Shown here in pieces: positions 1,088 to 7,568 of a DNA stretch of 7,568 bases. Source of the stretch: a virus. Its lineage: Duplodnaviria; Heunggongvirae; Uroviricota; Caudoviricetes. The notes below the pieces were generated by a model that saw only the letters and a program-made list of their open reading frames with translations, was not told the DNA's origin and did not search any database. The position numbers and the translations under genes were made by a program. Every line of letters starts with the position of its first letter. Position 1 is the stretch's first letter. Where the stretch lies: the IMG/VR virus record IMGVR_UViG_2671181118_000002. One strand, written 5' to 3'.

Positions 1088-2173
1088 TTACCCCCTGAAG
1101 CCTGGCGGAATTTCGGTATCCGGTTCAGAAACATGATTCACACAACGCTGGTTGTTCGTGCCGCTTACCGGGAGCAACCAGGGGTTTTCAAAATTCCGGT
1201 CCGGTCCAAAAAACGTCGTCGCTCGCTGAACAAATTCCGTTCCCGTTTTCCCGGTAGTCGCCAGGTATCTTGCGTAACGCCTCACGCCATCCAGCATGGC
1301 CTCTGGTGGCACCCCCTCGCGTAATCTGGCCTTCCAGGCACTGAAAGCGGATTTCTTCGGGTTTGCTCCGGCACGCAACGGGTATTCCCGCCAGACCTGT
1401 TCGAACACATCCGGATAATCCACTCGTCCCACAGGCTGCCCGGTGTTTTCCGGGACTACCTGATCGGCTTCCCGCTGAATGGCGGAATCGGCTTCAGGCT
1501 GCTGCAGTTGGTGTGATTGTTCCGGCCTTGCGGTCATCGCCTGCTGCACAGCGCCCGAATCGGCTTCCGGTGTCGTGCCTGCTGGCTGACCAGGATTGAC
1601 GTTCTGAACATCCCCTGCCTGGTTCGTGGCGATTTTTTCGCCATGAAGCATAGTATTTTTATCCTGCTCCTGTTCTTTCTCCTGTTCCTGTTCTTGGCTT
1701 AGAAGCCCCTTTAAAGCCTCTTCGAAGCCCCTTGCTGAATTCCGGCGATTATTCCGCCTCACATCCAGATGGAAATCCGTTTTATATCTGTCGTAAAAGG
1801 CTGACAGAAAGGCGTTTTCAGGTAATGATGCATACTCATTCCTGACACCTGCACAACGGTTATCTCCAGGCTTCAACGTTTCCCCAACCTGCCAGGCTGC
1901 CATTTCATGGACCCAGACCATCTCGGCATCATGGTCATAGCTACAAAAACCAGCTTCAACAGCCCTTTTAAGCCCCTTCGAAGCCCCTTCCGGACCAAGC
2001 CCGGTTTCATGAGCAAGGTACAAAACTGGCAGGTAATACAAACCCAACATATTTGCGTGAGGGGATGTCATCAGGTAAAAAGCAACAACTTGCGCTTCTG
2101 CACCCGCCTTTCTAAGTTCTCTCCCCGTTTCTCCCAGCCAGAATCGCGGGGAAACTTTTGCATAATCACGCAT
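1088..2173 (-). CDS. Putative phage replication-initiation protein (lambda O-like organisation: N-terminal domain, E/Q-rich low-complexity linker, C-terminal domain)
   Basis: Six-frame ORF 1088..2194. Preferred start is ATG at 2171-2173 preceded by GAGGTG; the ORF-track start at 2194 is a TTG. Sits after the cro-like and cII-like genes in the early operon. Contains a QEQEQEKEQEQ linker and iteron-like DNA repeats in the coding sequence. Family assignment is from memory of phage replication proteins and was not verified. Confidence 0.6.
   Translation of the reverse strand: MRDYAKVSPRFWLGETGRELRKAGAEAQVVAFYLMTSPHANMLGLYYLPVLYLAHETGLGPEGASKGLKRAVEAGFCSYDHDAEMVWVHEMAAWQVGETLKPGDNRCAGVRNEYASLPENAFLSAFYDRYKTDFHLDVRRNNRRNSARGFEEALKGLLSQEQEQEKEQEQDKNTMLHGEKIATNQAGDVQNVNPGQPAGTTPEADSGAVQQAMTARPEQSHQLQQPEADSAIQREADQVVPENTGQPVGRVDYPDVFEQVWREYPLRAGANPKKSAFSAWKARLREGVPPEAMLDGVRRYARYLATTGKTGTEFVQRATTFFGPDRNFENPWLLPVSGTNNQRCVNHVSEPDTEIPPGFRG
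1702..1734. repeat. Iteron-like cluster A: three ~11-bp direct repeats (GAAGCCCCTT / AAAGCCTCTT / GAAGCCCCTT) inside the replication gene
   Basis: Read directly: 1702-1711 gaagcccctt, 1713-1722 aaagcctctt, 1724-1733 gaagcccctt. The 11-bp period is not a multiple of 3, so the copies lie in different codon phases. Confidence 0.5.
1961..1990. repeat. Iteron-like cluster B: three tandem ~10-bp copies of AGCCCCTT-type repeat inside the replication gene
   Basis: Read directly: agccctttt (1961-1969), aagcccctt (1970-1978), gaagcccctt (1980-1989). Same motif and orientation as cluster A, about 260 bp away. Confidence 0.5.
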
Positions 2174-2198
2174 GTTCACCTCGTCTGGAGCCAAACCT

Positions 2199-2244
2199 TC
2201 CTCTGGTTATAATCTGTGATTCACTAATCAACAGAACCAGAGGA
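2199..2244 (+). promoter_or_regulatory. Candidate promoter/operator for the 131-aa gene: 10-bp perfect inverted repeat TCCTCTGGTT...AACCAGAGGA overlapping a TATAAT -10 hexamer and the downstream RBS
   Basis: Arms at 2199-2208 and 2235-2244 are exact reverse complements with a 26-bp spacer. TATAAT at 2208-2213. The right arm contains the AGGAGG Shine-Dalgarno of the ORF starting at 2253. No convincing -35 was found. Confidence 0.4.
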
Positions 2245-2252
2245 GGTTCGAA

Positions 2253-2648
2253 ATGGATTTTGCAACTATCACAAGTAGCGTTGTGTTGAGTGCGTGTGTT
2301 GCTGGCGTGGTTTCGCTGGTTAATGGTGCCTGGCAACGCAAATCGGAACGAACCATTGAAGCGCAACGCCGGGCTGCTGAAGCCAGAGCAAAAATAAGAG
2401 AAATGGCTCTCACCCTCGCATTGAAAGAATGGGAGCTCCACCAAACCATATCGAAGGCAAAGGGGTATGGTGTCAGCGGCCCAGAAGTTTACGTCTTTCG
2501 ATACTTTCGTATGCTCAACCTGATGGAGGAAGACAAATTCACGATTGAAAATCTCAGACTGATCCAGTACGACTCCATGTGTGCTGTTGCAGCAATTCAG
2601 GCAGAGATCGAGCGATATCGGGAGAAAAACGGCCTCCCGATGCCATAA
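2253..2648 (+). CDS. Membrane-anchored protein of unknown function (N-terminal hydrophobic helix, then a charged helical domain); encoded antisense to the surrounding early operon
   Basis: Six-frame ORF. ATG at 2253 with AGAGGAGG 6-7 nt upstream. Residues ~5-26 (ITSSVVLSACVAGVVSLVNGAW) are hydrophobic and followed by QRKSER. Not recognised as any family I know. Confidence 0.65.
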   Translation: MDFATITSSVVLSACVAGVVSLVNGAWQRKSERTIEAQRRAAEARAKIREMALTLALKEWELHQTISKAKGYGVSGPEVYVFRYFRMLNLMEEDKFTIENLRLIQYDSMCAVAAIQAEIERYREKNGLPMP

Positions 2649-2652
2649 ACAA

Positions 2653-2874
2653 TCAGCGTTTTTCATCTTTCCAAATCCTCATATCAGGCTTGCGCCCAAT
2701 GAACCGACGAAGACAATTTAAAGTCCATCGGGTGAAGTAATCCCTGAAACCAAAGAGATACCAGGTGAACAGATTCACGATAAAATGTCCGGCCAGAGCC
2801 CCACCAATACCACAGGCAAGAACAGTAAAAAAATCAGGTAGATTCACAGCCCCCTCCGTCATTGTTAACGCCAT
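2653..2874 (-). CDS. Small membrane protein (64-73 aa) with a long hydrophobic segment and a basic C-terminal tail; function unknown
   Basis: Six-frame ORF. Possible starts: ATG at 2872-2874 (8 nt after the upstream stop, weak SD) or GTG at 2845-2847 preceded by GGAGG with a 5-nt spacer. Hydrophobic stretch FFTVLACGIGGALAGHFIVNLFTWYLFGF. Its stop lies 4 nt from the stop of the convergent 2253..2648 gene. Confidence 0.55.
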   Translation of the reverse strand: MALTMTEGAVNLPDFFTVLACGIGGALAGHFIVNLFTWYLFGFRDYFTRWTLNCLRRFIGRKPDMRIWKDEKR

Positions 2875-2882
2875 CCGTGCTT

Positions 2883-3308
2883 TTAGTGCATCACCACGGC
2901 ATTTCCTGCAGGGCCACCACGGTTCATCTGATTGAAACCGGCAATCGCCACTGCGACAAAATCATCAGCGTCTCTCACCAGTCGTTCCCGCGTCTCCACC
3001 AGCTCCCGAAAATAGGCTGAACTGTGGCTGCGCATTCGGGCCACCAGCAAAGGTGGCATTGCCTTTTCGATCGCTGGTAACAACGCCTGAATTTTTTCAA
3101 CAGCATCAGGGGTGTCTTTCTCTACCCAGCGGAAAATTTTCTGTGTATTGCGAGCCAGGGCTTCCGGATGGCTGTCGTCATACAGTTCAGGAAACGTTAT
3201 ACCCAACTCAAAATAAGCCTGGGTTATTCCAGCTGCTGGAACTTTTTCGCCATCAGGACGCGCCCAGGCATTCATCGCCATGCGGATGTGTTCATGCTTG
3301 ATTTTCAT
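2883..3308 (-). CDS. YdaT-like protein (prophage CII-analog family)
   Basis: Six-frame ORF. ATG at 3306-3308 preceded by AGGAG. Overlaps the end of the upstream cro-like gene by 17 nt. N-terminus MKIKHEHI and the position straight after a YdaS/DicC-like gene match the ydaS-ydaT arrangement of Rac-type prophages (recalled, not searched). Confidence 0.65.
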   Translation of the reverse strand: MKIKHEHIRMAMNAWARPDGEKVPAAGITQAYFELGITFPELYDDSHPEALARNTQKIFRWVEKDTPDAVEKIQALLPAIEKAMPPLLVARMRSHSSAYFRELVETRERLVRDADDFVAVAIAGFNQMNRGGPAGNAVVMH

Positions 3309-3573
3309 GAATCAAGCTCCTAGAAAGTGGTTGTGTTAACGTTTTGGTATCTTCCAGCTCGGGCCAAATATTCATCCAATCAAAAGGCCTTAGTTGCTGA
3401 CGTGTAACTTCACCATTACTGGCTCGCTCAATAAGGACACATAACGATGCCCCTAACACTTGACCTTTACTCAATGCCTTTCTTAGATAACCGATGCTGG
3501 TACCACACTCGCATGCAAACATACGCTGTTCATCTGACGAAAGAGAATTGAGAAATATTCTTAATTCTTCCAT
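3292..3573 (-). CDS. Cro-like HTH regulator of the YdaS/DicC family
   Basis: Six-frame ORF. ATG at 3571-3573 with AAGGAG 6 nt upstream. Divergent from the repressor gene. Contains an HTH-like segment (GTSIGYLRKALSKGQ) and the C-terminal motif GEVTRQQLRPFDWMNIWPEL, which I recall as typical of YdaS/DicC-type proteins. Confidence 0.75.
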   Translation of the reverse strand: MEELRIFLNSLSSDEQRMFACECGTSIGYLRKALSKGQVLGASLCVLIERASNGEVTRQQLRPFDWMNIWPELEDTKTLTQPLSRSLIHENQA

Positions 3574-3598: not shown

Positions 3599-3680
3599 AG
3601 AATACCCACAGGTAAACAAAAGTCAATACCCACAGGTTGTTTACCTTGCAGTAATCGCATCTATTATTTACCTATGGACA
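3599..3680. promoter_or_regulatory. Divergent promoter/operator region between the cro-like and repressor genes, with repeated TACC-N4-GGTA-type operator motifs
   Basis: Direct repeat AATACCCACAGGT at 3601-3613 and 3625-3637. 10-bp inverted repeat AGGTAAACAA (3611-3620) / TTGTTTACCT (3637-3646). Candidate leftward promoter on the minus strand: TTGACT (3621-3626), ~16-bp spacer, TATTCT (3599-3604). Candidate rightward promoter: TTTACC (3640-3645), 16-bp spacer, TATTAT (3662-3667), ending 6 nt before the repressor ATG, which suggests a leaderless mRNA. Confidence 0.5.
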
Positions 3681-4093
3681 AATATGAATTTAGACGACAG
3701 CAACTCATCAAAATTCGTGATGAGAAATGCGATGGTAAAGCGGTTAACGTGGCCAGAAAGATCGGGCGCGAGCCTTCTTATGTATCAAGAATGTTGTACC
3801 CAGAGGGGAAAAAGGGAAAAAAACGGATCGCTGATGATATGGTGGAGATTATCGAAGAGTCCTTTGGGTTACCCCGGGGATGGATGGATGGTATCGTTTC
3901 ATCATCAACGAACACAGCCTCCAGTTATGAAACAAGGGTTCTAACGCCACGACAACGTATTTTTTTAGATCTCTTAGACGAACTGCCAGAAAGTGAAGCG
4001 GATAACTTATTAAAAACTCTTGAAGAGAAAAAACAGTATTACAATATGATCTACGAAGAAATCCGTAAAAAGAAAGCACAAAACGCATCATAG
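3674..4093 (+). CDS. Prophage repressor (CI/DicA-like); the C-terminal region resembles DicA, the N-terminal DNA-binding region does not
   Basis: Six-frame ORF 139 aa, divergent from the cro-like gene. HTH-like segment AVNVARKIGREPSYVSRML. C-terminal LTPRQRIFLDLLDELPESEADNLLKTLEE resembles the DicA C-terminal pattern as I recall it. No Shine-Dalgarno upstream, consistent with a leaderless start. Confidence 0.7.
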   Translation: MDKYEFRRQQLIKIRDEKCDGKAVNVARKIGREPSYVSRMLYPEGKKGKKRIADDMVEIIEESFGLPRGWMDGIVSSSTNTASSYETRVLTPRQRIFLDLLDELPESEADNLLKTLEEKKQYYNMIYEEIRKKKAQNAS

Positions 4094-5232: not shown

Positions 5233-5285
5233 TTTCTGGTGACGTTTGGCGGTATCAGTTTTACTCCGTGGCTGCTCTGCCGCCC
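5233..5285 (+). ncRNA. dicF: DicF small regulatory RNA
   Basis: TTTCTGGTGACGTTTGGCGGTATCAGTTTTACTCCGTGGCTGCTCTGCCGCCC followed by TTTTT matches the DicF sequence as I recall it, possibly with one substitution. Lies between ydfC-like and dicB, as in the Qin prophage. Confidence 0.85.
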
Positions 5286-5290
5286 TTTTT
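5249..5290 (+). terminator. Intrinsic terminator-like 3' hairpin of DicF with T-run
   Basis: GGCGG (5249-5253) pairs with CCGCC (5280-5284) around an imperfect inner stem; TTTTT at 5286-5290. Confidence 0.5.
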
Positions 5291-5295
5291 AAAGT

Positions 5296-5442
5296 GAATT
5301 TTGTGATGCGGTGAATGCGGCTCAGCGCACGCGGAACAGTTAAAACCAAAAACAGTGTTATGGGTGGATTCTCTGTATCCGGCGTTAATTGTTAACTGGT
5401 TAACGTCACCTGGAGGCACCAGGCACCGCATCACAAAATTCA
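5296..5442 (+). repeat. 18-bp perfect long-range inverted repeat between the DicF 3' end and the dicB RBS; candidate RNase III processing stem
   Basis: GAATTTTGTGATGCGGTG at 5296-5313 and its exact reverse complement CACCGCATCACAAAATTC at 5425-5442. Confidence 0.5.
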
Positions 5443-5459
5443 TTGTTGAGGACGCGATA

Positions 5460-5648
5460 ATGGAAACGTTATTACCAAACGTTAATACGTCTGAAGGTTG
5501 TTTTGAAATTGGTGTCACTATCAGTAACCCTGTATTTACTGAAGATGCCATTAACAAGAGAAAACACGAACGGGAGTTATTAAATAAAATATGCATTCTT
5601 TCAATGCTGGCCCGTTTACGTCCGATACAAAAAGGATGCTGGCAATGA
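5460..5648 (+). CDS. dicB: DicB cell-division inhibitor (62 aa)
   Basis: Within six-frame ORF 5355..5648. ATG at 5460-5462 preceded by GAGGA gives METLLPNVNTSEGCFEIGVTISNPVFTEDAINKRKHERELLNKICILSMLARLRPIQKGCWQ, recognised as DicB. Directly downstream of DicF. Confidence 0.85.
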   Translation: METLLPNVNTSEGCFEIGVTISNPVFTEDAINKRKHERELLNKICILSMLARLRPIQKGCWQ

Positions 5649-5836
5649 ATACAGCATTTGCACTTGTTCTGACAGTTTTTCTTGTTTCCGGAGAGCCAGT
5701 TGATATTGCAGTCAGTGTTCACAGGACAATGCAGGAGTGTATGACTGCAGCAACCGAACAGAAAATTCCCGGTAACTGTTACCCGGTCGATAAAGTTATT
5801 CACCAGGATAATATCGAAATCCCGGCAGGTCTTTAA
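5645..5836 (+). CDS. ydfD: YdfD-like small membrane/lysis protein (63 aa)
   Basis: Within six-frame ORF 5591..5836. ATG at 5645-5647 overlaps the dicB TGA (ATGA). Product MNTAFALVLTVFLVSGEPVDIAVSVHRTMQECMTAATEQKIPGNCYPVDKVIHQDNIEIPAGL. Confidence 0.8.
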   Translation: MNTAFALVLTVFLVSGEPVDIAVSVHRTMQECMTAATEQKIPGNCYPVDKVIHQDNIEIPAGL

Positions 5837-5929: not shown

Positions 5930-6868
5930 ATGAGTAAAGTCTTTATTTGCGCCGCCATTCCTGACGAACTGGCAACAAGGGAAGAAGGCGCTGTGGCTGT
6001 AGCCACAGCTATTGAAGCTGGCGACGAACGCCGTGCTCGAGCAAAATTTCACTGGCAATTCCTGGAACATTATCCGGCTGCTCAGGACTGCGCTTATAAA
6101 TTTATTATCTGCGAGGATAAACCTGGCATACCCCGCCCTGCCCTCGATTCATGGGATGCTGAATATATGCAGGAAAACCGCTGGGATGAGGATTCTGCTT
6201 CTTTTGTCCCGGTTGAGACTGAATCCGATCTGATGAACGTCACTTTTGACAAGCTGGCCCCTGAAGTACAGAACGCTCTCATGGTTAAGTTCGACACATG
6301 TGAAAACATCACCGTTGATATGGTTATTAGCGCACAGGAATTGTTGCAGGAAGACATGGCAACATTCAACGGACATATCGTTGAAGCGTTGATGAAAATG
6401 CCAGAAGTTAACGCCATGTATCCGGAGCTTAAGCTGCATGCCATCGGGTGGGTTAAGCATAAATGTAAGCCTGGTGCCAAATGGCCCGAAATTCAGGCAG
6501 AGATGCGCATCTGGAAAAAACGTCGCGAAGGTGAACGCAAGGAAACCGGAAAATACACGTCTGTTGTTGATCTCGCCCGCGCCAGAAGGTCATTGCTGCC
6601 ATTCATCGCGAATACAAGCAGACATGGAAAACACTGGATGACGAACTGGCCTACGCTCTCTGGCCTGGTGATGTGGATGCCGGAAACATTGACGGCAGCA
6701 TCCATCGCTGGGCAAAAAATGAAGTTATCGACAACGACCGCGAAGACTGGAAGCGTATCTCGGCATCAATGCGCAAACAGCCTGATGCCCTTCGCTACGA
6801 CCGCCAGACTATTTTTGGCCTTGTCCGTGAACGTCCGATCGACATTCACAAAGACCCTGTGGCACTGA
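5930..6868 (+). CDS. ydfE: YdfE-like prophage protein; only the first ~215 codons look like genuine coding sequence, after which the frame appears shifted (possible pseudogene or fusion)
   Basis: Six-frame ORF. ATG at 5930 with GAGG upstream. Translation is protein-like up to ...VVDLARAR (~6585); the remainder is W/M/H/T-rich and unnatural, while the -1 frame becomes open and protein-like from 6571. Confidence 0.55.
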   Translation: MSKVFICAAIPDELATREEGAVAVATAIEAGDERRARAKFHWQFLEHYPAAQDCAYKFIICEDKPGIPRPALDSWDAEYMQENRWDEDSASFVPVETESDLMNVTFDKLAPEVQNALMVKFDTCENITVDMVISAQELLQEDMATFNGHIVEALMKMPEVNAMYPELKLHAIGWVKHKCKPGAKWPEIQAEMRIWKKRREGERKETGKYTSVVDLARARRSLLPFIANTSRHGKHWMTNWPTLSGLVMWMPETLTAASIAGQKMKLSTTTAKTGSVSRHQCANSLMPFATTARLFLALSVNVRSTFTKTLWH

Positions 6869-7568
6869 ACAAATACATTACTGAATACCTGACTACAAAG
6901 GGCGTGTTTGAAGATGAAGGAAGAAATCAGAGCGCAACTGATACTCTCTCGTCGCCAGTACCAGAAACTGATGCAGTGGAAACGGCAATTCCGGACAACG
7001 AAAAAACCGAATGCAAAGTGGAAGTCGAACCATCTGTAGAGCGTGAGGGGCCGTTCTACTTCCTCTTCACCGACAAGGATAGCGAAAAATACGGTCGCGC
7101 AAACAAACTTTCTGGTCTGGAAAAAGCACTAGCCCTGGGAGCTACGGAAATCACAAAAGAGGAATACTTCGCACGTAAAAACGGCACGTACTCAGGTTCA
7201 CAACAAAATACTGGTGCATCTGACACGACCGCACAACCAGAGCCGGTAAAAGTTACCGCTGACGAAGTAAACAAAATTATGCAGGCAGCCAATATCAGCC
7301 AGCCTGACGCCGATAAGTTGCTTGCTGCATCACGTGGTGAATTTGTTGAAGGGATTAGTGACCCGAATGATCCGAAATGGGTTAAGGGGATCCAGACCCG
7401 CGATTCTGTGAACCAGAACCAGCATGAATCGGAACGGAACTACCAAAAAGCGGAACAAAACAGCACAAATGCGTTACAAAACGAGCCAGAAACGAAACAG
7501 CCTGAACCAGTGGCGCAACAGGAAGTGGAAAAAGTCTGCACCGCCTGCGGTCAGACCGGCGGCGGCAA
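6571..7568 (+). CDS. Long acidic ORF (at least 332 codons, 3' end beyond the window); either the frameshifted continuation of the ydfE-like gene or the N-terminal part of a larger early-region protein
   Basis: Frame with codons starting at 6571, 6574 and so on has no stop through 7568, shows E. coli-like codon use, and has no ATG with a Shine-Dalgarno near its 5' end (first ATG at 6769). Checked by hand codon by codon. Confidence 0.5.

What the first reader, a model, noticed from the sequence alone, without database searches (positions are those of the whole stretch)
2649..2880. Small basic-tailed membrane protein gene convergent with the antisense gene, stops 4 nt apart
The 64-73-aa ORF (2653-2874, minus) follows the cII-like gene and encodes a ~28-residue hydrophobic segment plus an Arg/Lys-rich tail, a composition shared by small membrane-active phage proteins (Kil-like host-killing, holin-like or type I toxin-like). 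Its stop codon is only 4 nt from the stop of the convergent 131-aa gene, with no room for a terminator. The two transcripts must therefore overlap at their 3' ends, which could give mutual antisense or transcriptional-interference control. A toxin/antagonist pairing is one possible reading, but it is speculation.
Basis: partly seen in the sequence, partly recalled or inferred. Interest (0 to 1): 0.5.

Follow-up and report, generated by a model that had tools for sequence, protein, structure and literature searches.

The report
Small membrane gene abutting PD-λ-6 defence
The small ORF is a real, conserved gene for a 64-residue membrane protein, and it always travels tail-to-tail with PD-λ-6, a known anti-phage defence gene carried by prophages; it is probably that gene's overlooked lytic-phase partner, not a free-standing toxin.

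Summary
An ORF on the minus strand ends at 2653, 4 nt from the stop of the convergent 131-aa gene (2253-2648). It encodes one ~29-residue hydrophobic helix plus a +6 Arg/Lys tail. Comparative data put its start at GTG 2847 (64 aa), not ATG 2874. It is coding: dN/dS is 0.06-0.31 in frame only, with a third-position excess (p=2e-5).

The "antisense gene" is PD-Lambda-6 (PADLOC E=9e-90), published as a single-gene anti-lambda defence. The two genes form a ~660-bp cassette (about 2186-2847) that includes PD-λ-6's own promoter. I found it in at least six phage contexts: after ydaT, after cro (two different backbones), after a Rha-family gene, after a capsid gene, and in an E. albertii remnant. The small gene is always sense to the lytic operon and PD-λ-6 antisense.

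Where other cargo replaces PD-λ-6 (251 E. coli genomes), the small ORF is frameshifted in at least 93%. In the decayed E. albertii prophage, PD-λ-6 is intact and the small ORF is broken.

Best reading: a defence gene with its own promoter, presumably expressed in the lysogen, plus a membrane partner expressed from the lytic operon. The partner is probably a self-immunity factor or modulator, and convergent transcription would oppose the two. Membership of Kil, holin or type I toxin families is not supported. The fragment that validated PD-λ-6 (gene ±257 nt) would have contained this ORF.

The parts
2653..2847 (-). Small membrane-protein gene, conserved 64-aa form (GTG start at 2847, TGA stop at 2653-2655). 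Predicted N-out/C-in single-pass protein: TM at residues 6-34 with the invariant motif TVLACGxGGALxGHFxVNxFTW, then an amphipathic basic tail.
2848..2874 (-). Lineage-specific 5' extension (ATG 2874, ATG 2862) that gives the 73-aa and 69-aa readings. It contains the Shine-Dalgarno GGAGG (2853-2857) that serves GTG 2847. It is not conserved outside the ydaT context.
2827..2833 (-). T7 homopolymer (A7 on the + strand) in codons 5-8. It is T6 in nearly all copies that lack PD-λ-6, which frameshifts the ORF after codon 7.
2649..2652 (.). 4-nt gap (ACAA) between the two convergent stop codons. The gap is 4 nt in most cassette copies, 6 nt in E. albertii and 11 nt in Trabulsiella.
2253..2648 (+). 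PD-Lambda-6 anti-phage defence gene (131 aa). An N-terminal TM helix continues into a long helix (residues 3-70), followed by two helices that complete a three-helix cytoplasmic domain.
   Evidence: PMC9519451 Tables S1/S2
2185..2252 (+). Conserved promoter and leader of PD-λ-6. The -35 is CTGGAG at 2185-2190 (TTGGTG in other copies), followed by a 17-nt spacer and a -10 TATAAT at 2208-2213 (GATATT in others). The Shine-Dalgarno GAGGAGG is at 2240-2246. Cassette homology ends at about 2186.
   Evidence: sequence and conservation only; the promoter has not been tested
2883..3308 (-). ydaT, the cII functional analogue. It lies immediately upstream of the small gene in the early-right operon.
   Evidence: PMC8630535, PMC9986795
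1088..2194 (-). Replication initiator / DnaD-like helicase-loader gene (PGAP start ATG 2173). The next sense gene of the early-right operon, reached only by transcribing antisense across PD-λ-6, unless it has an unmapped promoter of its own.

Best explanation
The small ORF and the convergent 131-aa gene are the two halves of one mobile prophage cassette.

PD-λ-6 has its own conserved promoter and points against the phage's lytic operon. It is the defence gene, presumably expressed in the lysogen (inferred from its own promoter and orientation, and from the published result that the cloned fragment protects from its native promoter).

The 64-aa gene has no conserved promoter of its own and is always sense to the surrounding lytic operon. 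Here it is the gene after ydaT in the pR-type operon. It is therefore made only when the prophage goes lytic (inferred).

The stops are 4 nt apart, and the replication genes lie beyond PD-λ-6. Lytic transcription must therefore run antisense through PD-λ-6, and PD-λ-6 transcripts must end inside the antisense of the small gene or of ydaT. The two programmes would then oppose each other by polymerase collision or RNA duplex formation (inferred from the layout).

Both products are predicted N-out/C-in single-pass membrane proteins with small-xxx-small helix faces. I propose that the small protein acts on PD-λ-6 at the membrane during the phage's own lytic growth, as a self-immunity factor or modulator, rather than as an autonomous toxin (hypothesis).
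For: 1. Both genes are real and under purifying selection.

2. The 131-aa gene is PD-Lambda-6 (E=9e-90 over the full 131-position model). It was validated against lambda-vir from a cloned fragment under its native promoter (PMC9519451).

3. The pair moves as a unit. Conserved DNA runs from the small gene's start codon to the -35 of PD-λ-6. The pair occurs in these settings:
- after ydaT (window);
- after P22-type cro;
- after cro in Salmonella, with two different immunity regions;
- after a Rha-family gene (weak Phage_pRha match);
- after a major-capsid gene in Trabulsiella.
In all of them the small gene is sense to the phage operon and PD-λ-6 is antisense.

4. All 17 complete E. coli genomes with PD-λ-6 carry the small ORF at 90% identity or more over its full length. 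In the sampled close-relative loci outside E. albertii, the ORF is open in all but one metagenomic contig.

5. The pattern of decay fits dependence on PD-λ-6 and on a lytic cycle.
- In the 251 genomes where a 590-aa phrog_9230 gene replaces PD-λ-6, at least 233 carry the T6 frameshift allele. The same allele is in 34 of 35 such IMG/VR contigs, while 6 of 6 PD-λ-6-linked copies keep T7.
- In a degraded E. albertii prophage at icd, PD-λ-6 is intact and the small ORF is frameshifted.

6. The two proteins have the same predicted topology, and both TM helices carry small-xxx-small motifs.

7. A 45%-identical PD-λ-6 homologue (L017) has a convergent partial ORF with a TM segment and a basic tail that overlaps its 3' end by 15 nt.

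8. Precedents exist for prophage defence with cognate self-immunity: BstA/aba (PMC8585504) and TerI/anti-TerI (10.1101/2025.02.27.640495).
Against: - There is no direct evidence that the two proteins interact, or that PD-λ-6 harms its own phage.
- More distant PD-λ-6 relatives lack this partner. L038 abuts a non-membrane 89-aa gene, L045 overlaps a 257-aa gene, and L048-L050 sit in co-directional operons.
- The decay evidence amounts to about two independent events. The solo copies are 98-100% identical to one another, so the 233 genomes largely inherit a single frameshift.
- With only 4 nt between the genes, recombination can hardly separate them, so co-mobility could be mere linkage.
- The small ORF also sits next to a second, unrelated convergent cargo gene. 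That could mean it simply flanks an insertion hotspot.
- No transcript ends or promoter activities were measured.
Confidence: 0.45

Rival explanations
1. Independent accessory gene. The small protein is an early-lytic membrane protein with its own host-directed role, such as viroporin-like or Kil-like growth inhibition, or superinfection exclusion. It merely marks the upstream edge of a site where antisense morons insert (PD-λ-6 in one lineage, phrog_9230 in another). Its tight linkage to PD-λ-6 is then historical.
For: - The same ORF lies next to two unrelated convergent cargo genes.
- The E. albertii copy combines the nin-type upstream flank with PD-λ-6, which looks like cargo swapping at one site.
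- Distant PD-λ-6 relatives lack the ORF.
- Conserved polar residues inside the TM (H21, N25, T28) would fit an oligomeric pore.
Against: - If it had an autonomous useful function, it should stay intact without PD-λ-6. Yet at least 233 of 251 genomes and 34 of 35 viral contigs with the solo copy carry a frameshift after codon 7.
- The pair was moved as a unit even into a late structural operon.
Confidence: 0.3
2. PD-λ-6 is really a two-gene defence system, and the small membrane protein is a required component (sensor or effector partner).
For: - The region cloned to validate PD-λ-6 was the gene plus 257/258 nt on each side (PMC9519451 Table S2). In this locus that fragment (1996-2906) contains the complete small ORF and its Shine-Dalgarno sequence.
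- The ORF accompanies PD-λ-6 in every close-relative locus examined, and PD-λ-6 never occurs without it.
Against: - In that fragment the small ORF would lack the pR promoter, and no conserved promoter precedes it.
- E. albertii keeps an intact PD-λ-6 beside a frameshifted small ORF on many contigs.
- The convergent orientation, with the small gene tied to lytic operons, is the opposite of what co-expressed partners need.
Confidence: 0.1
3. One reading: a type I-like toxin module. The small hydrophobic peptide is a membrane toxin, kept silent by the 3'-overlapping antisense transcript of the 131-aa gene or by its protein product.
For: The size, the single TM helix and the basic tail resemble type I toxins. 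Convergent 3' overlap is expected from the 4-nt gap.
Against: - No match to Hok/Gef, Ldr, TisB, Ibs, ShoB or any other Pfam, NCBIfam or PADLOC family.
- No conserved promoter or 5' UTR of its own.
- No small-RNA family was detected at this locus.
- The supposed antagonist has an independent, experimentally shown function as a defence gene.
- The antagonist persists after the 'toxin' is lost.
Confidence: 0.07
4. Not a gene. The conservation reflects the 3' UTR or terminator of PD-λ-6, or simply recent common ancestry.
For: PGAP leaves the ORF unannotated in many genomes.
Against: - dN/dS is 0.06-0.31 only in this frame, with synonymous sites saturated between some lineages.
- There is a third-position excess.
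- The start codon and Shine-Dalgarno sequence are conserved in six divergent versions.
- The RNA fold of the junction is no better than shuffled sequence.
Confidence: 0.03

Closest known systems
PD-λ-6 (PD-Lambda-6) anti-phage defence system, Vassallo et al. 2022 (PMC9519451)
   Same: The convergent 131-aa gene matches the PADLOC PD-Lambda-6 model end to end (E=9e-90). It is prophage-borne and has an N-terminal membrane anchor.
   Different: The system is published and catalogued as a single gene. Here it is always accompanied by a conserved convergent 64-aa membrane-protein gene. That gene is often unannotated, and it would have been inside the validated clone (gene ±257 nt). The mechanism of PD-λ-6 is still unknown.
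Prophage defence with cognate self-immunity: BstA/aba (PMC8585504) and TerI/anti-TerI1,2 of Listeria phages (bioRxiv 10.1101/2025.02.27.640495)
   Same: A defence gene carried by a temperate phage, with an adjacent element that would let the phage's own lytic cycle escape it. In TERi the immunity factors are proteins.
   Different: Self-immunity is only inferred here. The aba element of BstA is a DNA element inside bstA, not a protein. Neither of those systems has the tail-to-tail arrangement with a 4-nt gap, or two membrane proteins.
Lambda oop / cII antisense arrangement (own knowledge of lambda biology)
   Same: A promoter sits just upstream of the replication gene and fires back towards the cII-type gene, giving RNA antisense to the 3' part of the early-right operon.
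   Different: In lambda the product is a 77-nt non-coding RNA with its own terminator. Here the antisense transcript is an mRNA for a defence protein, and no Rfam family or terminator was found.
Type I toxin-antitoxin loci (hok/sok, ldr/rdl, tisB/istR)
   Same: A small single-TM peptide with a charged tail, and the potential for control by an overlapping antisense RNA.
   Different: No family match, no own promoter or 5' UTR, no dedicated sRNA. Expression depends on a phage operon. The ORF decays when its neighbour is replaced.
Lysogen-expressed morons inside lambdoid operons (lambda rexAB, sieB; own knowledge)
   Same: An accessory gene with its own promoter, embedded in a phage regulatory region, that protects the lysogen.
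   Different: Those genes are not paired with a convergent gene encoded in the lytic operon. This cassette interrupts the path from pR to the replication genes.

Membership tests
PD-Lambda-6 defence (applies to the convergent 131-aa gene) | Full-length match to the PADLOC PD-Lambda-6 profile | tested here: met
   PDLC04020, E=9.2e-90, residues 1-131 on profile positions 1-131
PD-Lambda-6 defence (applies to the convergent 131-aa gene) | Protects E. coli against lambda-vir when cloned with its native promoter | not testable with these tools
   Reported for the UMB6655 allele (PMC9519451). This allele was not tested.
PD-Lambda-6 defence (applies to the convergent 131-aa gene) | Single-gene system | tested here: inconclusive
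   A conserved 64-aa gene abuts it in every close relative and lies within the published cloned interval if the context is the same. Against a requirement for it, E. albertii keeps PD-λ-6 without it.
Type I toxin (Hok/Gef, Ldr, TisB, Ibs, ShoB, Zor, DinQ) | Sequence membership of a known toxin family | tested here: not met
   No Pfam, NCBIfam or PADLOC hit even at E up to 10
Type I toxin (Hok/Gef, Ldr, TisB, Ibs, ShoB, Zor, DinQ) | Own promoter and 5' UTR, plus a dedicated antisense sRNA | tested here: not met
   Conserved DNA starts at the start codon. There is no promoter-like site upstream and no Rfam hit at the locus.
Type I toxin (Hok/Gef, Ldr, TisB, Ibs, ShoB, Zor, DinQ) | Small single-TM peptide that is toxic when expressed | not testable with these tools
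   The single TM helix is confirmed. Toxicity is unknown.
Holin | Encoded in a lysis cassette next to an endolysin or spanin | tested here: not met
   It lies between ydaT and the replication genes. Elsewhere it follows cro, a Rha-family gene, ninE or a capsid gene.
Holin | Match to a holin family | tested here: not met
   No Pfam or PHROG hit
Kil-type host-killing proteins (lambda Kil, Rac KilR, DicB) | Sequence similarity and a pL-side location | tested here: not met
   No family hit. The gene is on the pR side. The window's own dicB lies at about 5460-5648 on the other arm.
Prophage defence with cognate self-immunity (BstA/aba, TERi) | A defence gene and its immunity element are genetically linked and mobilised together | tested here: met
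   The cassette is conserved as a unit in at least six contexts
Prophage defence with cognate self-immunity (BstA/aba, TERi) | The immunity factor is expressed during the prophage's own lytic cycle | tested here: inconclusive
   It is always sense to a lytic operon and lacks its own conserved promoter. No expression data are available.
Prophage defence with cognate self-immunity (BstA/aba, TERi) | The immunity factor neutralises the defence protein | not testable with these tools
   Only indirect evidence: the small ORF decays where PD-λ-6 or the lytic cycle is absent.

The most novel reading that the evidence does not exclude
PD-λ-6 is not a single-gene system. It is the lysogen-expressed half of a convergent two-gene membrane module. 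The overlooked 64-aa protein is made only when a lytic operon fires, and it is a cognate anti-PD-λ-6 self-immunity factor. Head-on transcription across a 4-nt junction acts as the switch between 'defend the lysogen' and 'let my own phage grow'. The same small protein could then serve as a portable anti-defence gene against PD-λ-6.
Probability: 0.3. Interest if true: 0.65.

Novelty: new member of a known kind. Interest (0 to 1): 0.45.

Why it matters
PD-λ-6 is catalogued in defence-system databases as a one-gene system of unknown mechanism. This analysis shows that it always travels with a conserved, frequently unannotated small membrane-protein gene, and that this gene was very probably inside the fragment used to validate the system.

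That gives a concrete handle on how PD-λ-6 works and how the carrying phage tolerates it, and the idea is cheap to test. If the small protein is a self-immunity factor, it would add a protein-based example in lambdoid phages to the few known cases of defence with cognate self-immunity. It would also show how a convergent gene layout can make defence and lytic growth mutually exclusive.

If the small protein is not such a factor, the locus is an ordinary moron next to an ordinary small phage gene.

Tried and rejected
- **Family searches for the 64-aa protein.** Pfam, PHROGs, PADLOC, NCBIfam and a PDB sequence-profile search all found nothing.
- **Fold search with the PD-λ-6 model.** Neither PDB nor BFVD gave a significant hit (no match at E ≤ 0.001); the best viral match, E = 0.024, is an uncharacterised Ralstonia phage protein. 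The small protein's model is a single helix, so I did not fold-search it.
- **Intrinsic terminator or conserved RNA structure at the junction.** None was found, and the folding z-scores are about 0. Rfam finds only DicF elsewhere in the window.
- **YdaT control of the PD-λ-6 promoter.** The only YdaT operator in the window is at the ydaS/ydaT junction.
- **A universal small TM partner across the wider PD-λ-6 family.** Rejected: distant members have other neighbours.
- **"Several different cargo genes follow the solo small ORF."** This was my early reading, and I withdrew it. They are all one phrog_9230 gene, either intact or split.
- **Solo copies as evidence for an independently functional gene.** Rejected once the T6 frameshift was found.
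- **Direct check of the UMB6655 contig.** It could not be retrieved, so the claim that the published clone contains the ORF is an inference. It rests on the invariant context of this exact allele.
- **Structure prediction of the complex.** Not possible with the tools and caps available.

Full report
**Setting.** The window is the regulatory arm of a Rac-like lambdoid prophage of E. coli, and the early-right operon runs on the minus strand. Its parts are:
- a repressor-like gene at 3674-4093 (+);
- a ydaS/cro-like gene at 3292-3573 (-);
- ydaT at 2883-3308 (-), Pfam PF06254, E=7e-10;
- the small ORF;
- a convergent 131-aa gene at 2253-2648 (+);
- a DnaD-like replication initiator at 1088-2194 (-) and a DUF977 gene.

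Nearly identical DNA (97-98%) over the whole cassette region occurs in 17 of 5426 complete E. coli genomes.

**The observation.** The ORF, its hydrophobic segment, its basic tail and the 4-nt gap between the convergent stops (2649-2652) are all as described. ORFs of this size are common by chance: the window has 83 of at least 30 aa. The test is therefore evolutionary.
- Across five diverged copies, Nei-Gojobori dN/dS is 0.06-0.31 in the ORF's frame and about 0.5-3 in the other two forward frames.
- Variable sites fall 23/14/48 on codon positions 1/2/3 (p=1.8e-5).
- Against the most diverged copy (Trabulsiella, 57% amino-acid identity), pS is 0.74 and pN is 0.24.

It is a real gene.

**The start codon.** DNA homology between copies begins exactly at window 2847. 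Every version has ATG or GTG there, preceded by a Shine-Dalgarno sequence. The ATGs at 2874 and 2862 exist only in the ydaT-linked lineage. The conserved product is 64 aa, and PGAP annotates that form in some genomes and nothing in others.

**The small protein.** AlphaFold gives one long helix (residues 3-50) and a short C-terminal helix. By hydrophobicity and the positive-inside rule it is a single-pass N-out/C-in membrane protein. The TM is unusually conserved at the residue level (TVLACGxGGALxGHFxVNxFTW), with polar His, Asn and Thr and several small-xxx-small motifs.

**What the neighbour is.** The 131-aa protein matches the PADLOC model PD-Lambda-6 over its full length (E=9e-90) and phrog_36733. 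PD-λ-6 was recovered in the functional selection of Vassallo et al. 2022. It protected E. coli K-12 against lambda-vir when cloned with its native promoter, and it was described as a single hypothetical gene (PMC9519451).
- It is under strong purifying selection (dN/dS 0.02-0.06).
- The model (pLDDT 84.6) shows an N-terminal TM helix that runs into a long helix (residues 3-70), plus two further helices forming a three-helix cytoplasmic domain.
- Fold searches give nothing informative.
- Its wider family is small: 28 cluster representatives at E<1e-3 among 1.84 billion proteins.

**A two-gene cassette.** Conserved DNA runs from the small gene's start codon (2847) to about 2186. That stretch includes a conserved promoter-like element (TTGGTG-N17-GATATT; in the window CTGGAG-N17-TATAAT at 2185-2213) and a strong Shine-Dalgarno sequence for PD-λ-6. 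The block sits in different surroundings:
- after ydaT (window);
- after a P22-type cro next to an S24 repressor;
- after cro in Salmonella prophages, with two different immunity regions and a primase-helicase replication module;
- after a Rha-family gene (weak Phage_pRha match), ahead of KilA-N or Lar genes;
- in Trabulsiella, inside a structural operon just after the major-capsid gene.

In every case the small gene is sense to the phage's lytic operon and PD-λ-6 is antisense. The stops are 4 to 11 nt apart. Synonymous divergence of the two genes is similar within each pair of loci, so they have travelled together for a long time.

**Copies without PD-λ-6.** The small-ORF DNA occurs in 268 complete E. 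coli genomes. Seventeen of these carry it with PD-λ-6. The other 251 carry an about 85%-identical copy after ninE in Stx-type prophages. There it faces a single convergent cargo family about 175 nt away: a 590-aa phrog_9230 protein, intact or split. My early impression of several different cargo genes was wrong.

These solo copies are mostly dead. A T7 run in codons 5-8 is T6 in at least 233 of the 251 genomes and in 34 of 35 IMG/VR contigs, which places a stop after codon 17. All six PD-λ-6-linked IMG/VR copies keep T7.

The converse case is E. albertii. In a decayed prophage remnant at icd, PD-λ-6 is intact on many contigs while the small ORF is frameshifted.

So the small ORF is kept where both PD-λ-6 and a plausibly active phage are present, and it decays where either is missing. 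One caveat matters: the solo copies are 98-100% identical to one another. This is therefore about two independent decay events, not hundreds.

**Mechanism.** Directly visible in the sequence:
- the layout of the genes;
- the absence of a terminator at the junction;
- the absence of a conserved promoter for the small gene;
- the presence of a conserved promoter-like element for PD-λ-6.

Inferred:
- PD-λ-6 is expressed in the lysogen.
- The small gene is expressed only from the lytic operon.
- Because lytic transcription must cross PD-λ-6 in antisense to reach the replication genes, the two programmes collide. This resembles the geometry of lambda's oop promoter relative to cII and O (own knowledge).

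Hypothesis: the small protein acts on PD-λ-6 in the membrane so that the phage's own lytic growth escapes a defence aimed at lambdoid phages. Self-immunity of this kind is known for BstA/aba (PMC8585504) and TerI/anti-TerI (10.1101/2025.02.27.640495).

Against this hypothesis:
- Distant PD-λ-6 relatives have other neighbours. One 45%-identical homologue does show a convergent partial ORF with a TM segment and a basic tail, overlapping its 3' end by 15 nt.
- A 4-nt gap would keep the genes linked regardless of function.
- Nothing shows that the proteins interact.

I put the coupled, self-immunity-type reading at 0.45 and an independent accessory function at 0.30. A required defence component gets 0.10, a type I-like toxin module 0.07, and "not a gene" 0.03.

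**A practical point.** Table S2 of Vassallo et al. gives the PD-λ-6 ORF as 426209-426605 and the cloned region as 425952-426863 of RRUL01000001, which is the gene plus 257/258 nt on each side. Mapped onto this locus, that interval is 1996-2906. It contains the whole small ORF and its Shine-Dalgarno sequence but not pR.

The exact PD-λ-6 allele of this window is indexed in 1,979 collection blocks, and in all ten places sampled it has this same ydaT context. It is therefore very likely, though not verified for UMB6655 itself, that the validated "single-gene" clone carried this second ORF.

**Comparison with the proposed families.** No membership test for Kil, holin or type I toxin families was met. 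There was no sequence match, and the gene sits in the wrong genomic context for each. It also has no promoter or sRNA of its own.

**Verdict.** The toxin-style interpretation is not supported. The locus is the known defence gene PD-λ-6 together with a conserved small membrane-protein gene that is inconsistently annotated in databases and absent from the published description of PD-λ-6, and that is probably functionally tied to it. Interest is moderate: the defence gene is known, but the conserved partner and the convergent layout give a specific, easily tested idea about self-immunity and about whether PD-λ-6 is really a one-gene system.

Noticed in passing
window 3298-3315: A perfect YdaT operator, TTGATTTTCATGAATCAA (consensus TTGATTN6AATCAA from PMC9986795), spans the ydaS stop and ydaT start. 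This is where the YdaT-activated PRE-like promoter was described for CP-933P (PMC8630535). It is the only match in the window at up to 2 mismatches.
   Followed up: partly
window 5234-5836: DicF sRNA at 5234-5285 (+) (Rfam RF00039, 75 bits). It is followed by a dicB-like ORF ending at 5648 and a DUF1482/YdfD-like small membrane ORF at 5591-5836, giving a Qin/Rac-type division-inhibition module on the pL side.
   Followed up: partly
window 5930-7568: The RecE-like exonuclease ORF stops at 6868 after 312 codons, and the reading continues in another frame. This is a probable frameshifted pseudogene relative to the about 820-aa homologue annotated in NZ_CM132922.
   Followed up: partly
L051:1550-3322 (also L006-L008, L015, L016): A 590-aa phrog_9230 protein lies convergent to the solo small ORF after ninE in Stx-type prophages (251 complete E. 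coli genomes carry the solo small-ORF copy, and every sampled solo locus has this gene). It has an S/T/N-rich N-terminus and several hydrophobic segments, with no Pfam, PADLOC or PDB match. It is an uncharacterised antisense moron.
   Followed up: partly
L006:5013-5019 versus L015 (window equivalent 2827-2833): A T7/T6 homopolymer polymorphism decides whether the solo small ORF is open. Two of the three T7 (open) loci whose cargo gene could be read (L006, L007) have a split phrog_9230 gene, while the T6 loci examined have it intact. The sample is too small to interpret.
   Followed up: no
P0014 (103 aa, Logan contig): A deletion variant fuses PD-λ-6 codon ~73 to the antisense of the ydaT 5' region. 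It removes the 3' half of PD-λ-6, the small ORF and most of ydaT.
   Followed up: no
L030:3001-4899 (Trabulsiella guamensis): The whole small-ORF/PD-λ-6 cassette sits in a late structural operon, directly downstream of a lambda-E-like major capsid gene rather than in the early region. The small protein is only 57% identical to the window's, while PD-λ-6 is 88% identical.
   Followed up: partly
L038:2465-3209; L045:2405-3633: Distant PD-λ-6-family genes also abut a convergent phage gene very tightly (a 4-nt gap in L038, a 4-nt overlap in L045), but the partners are unrelated to each other. Tail-to-tail abutment may be a general habit of this defence family.
   Followed up: partly
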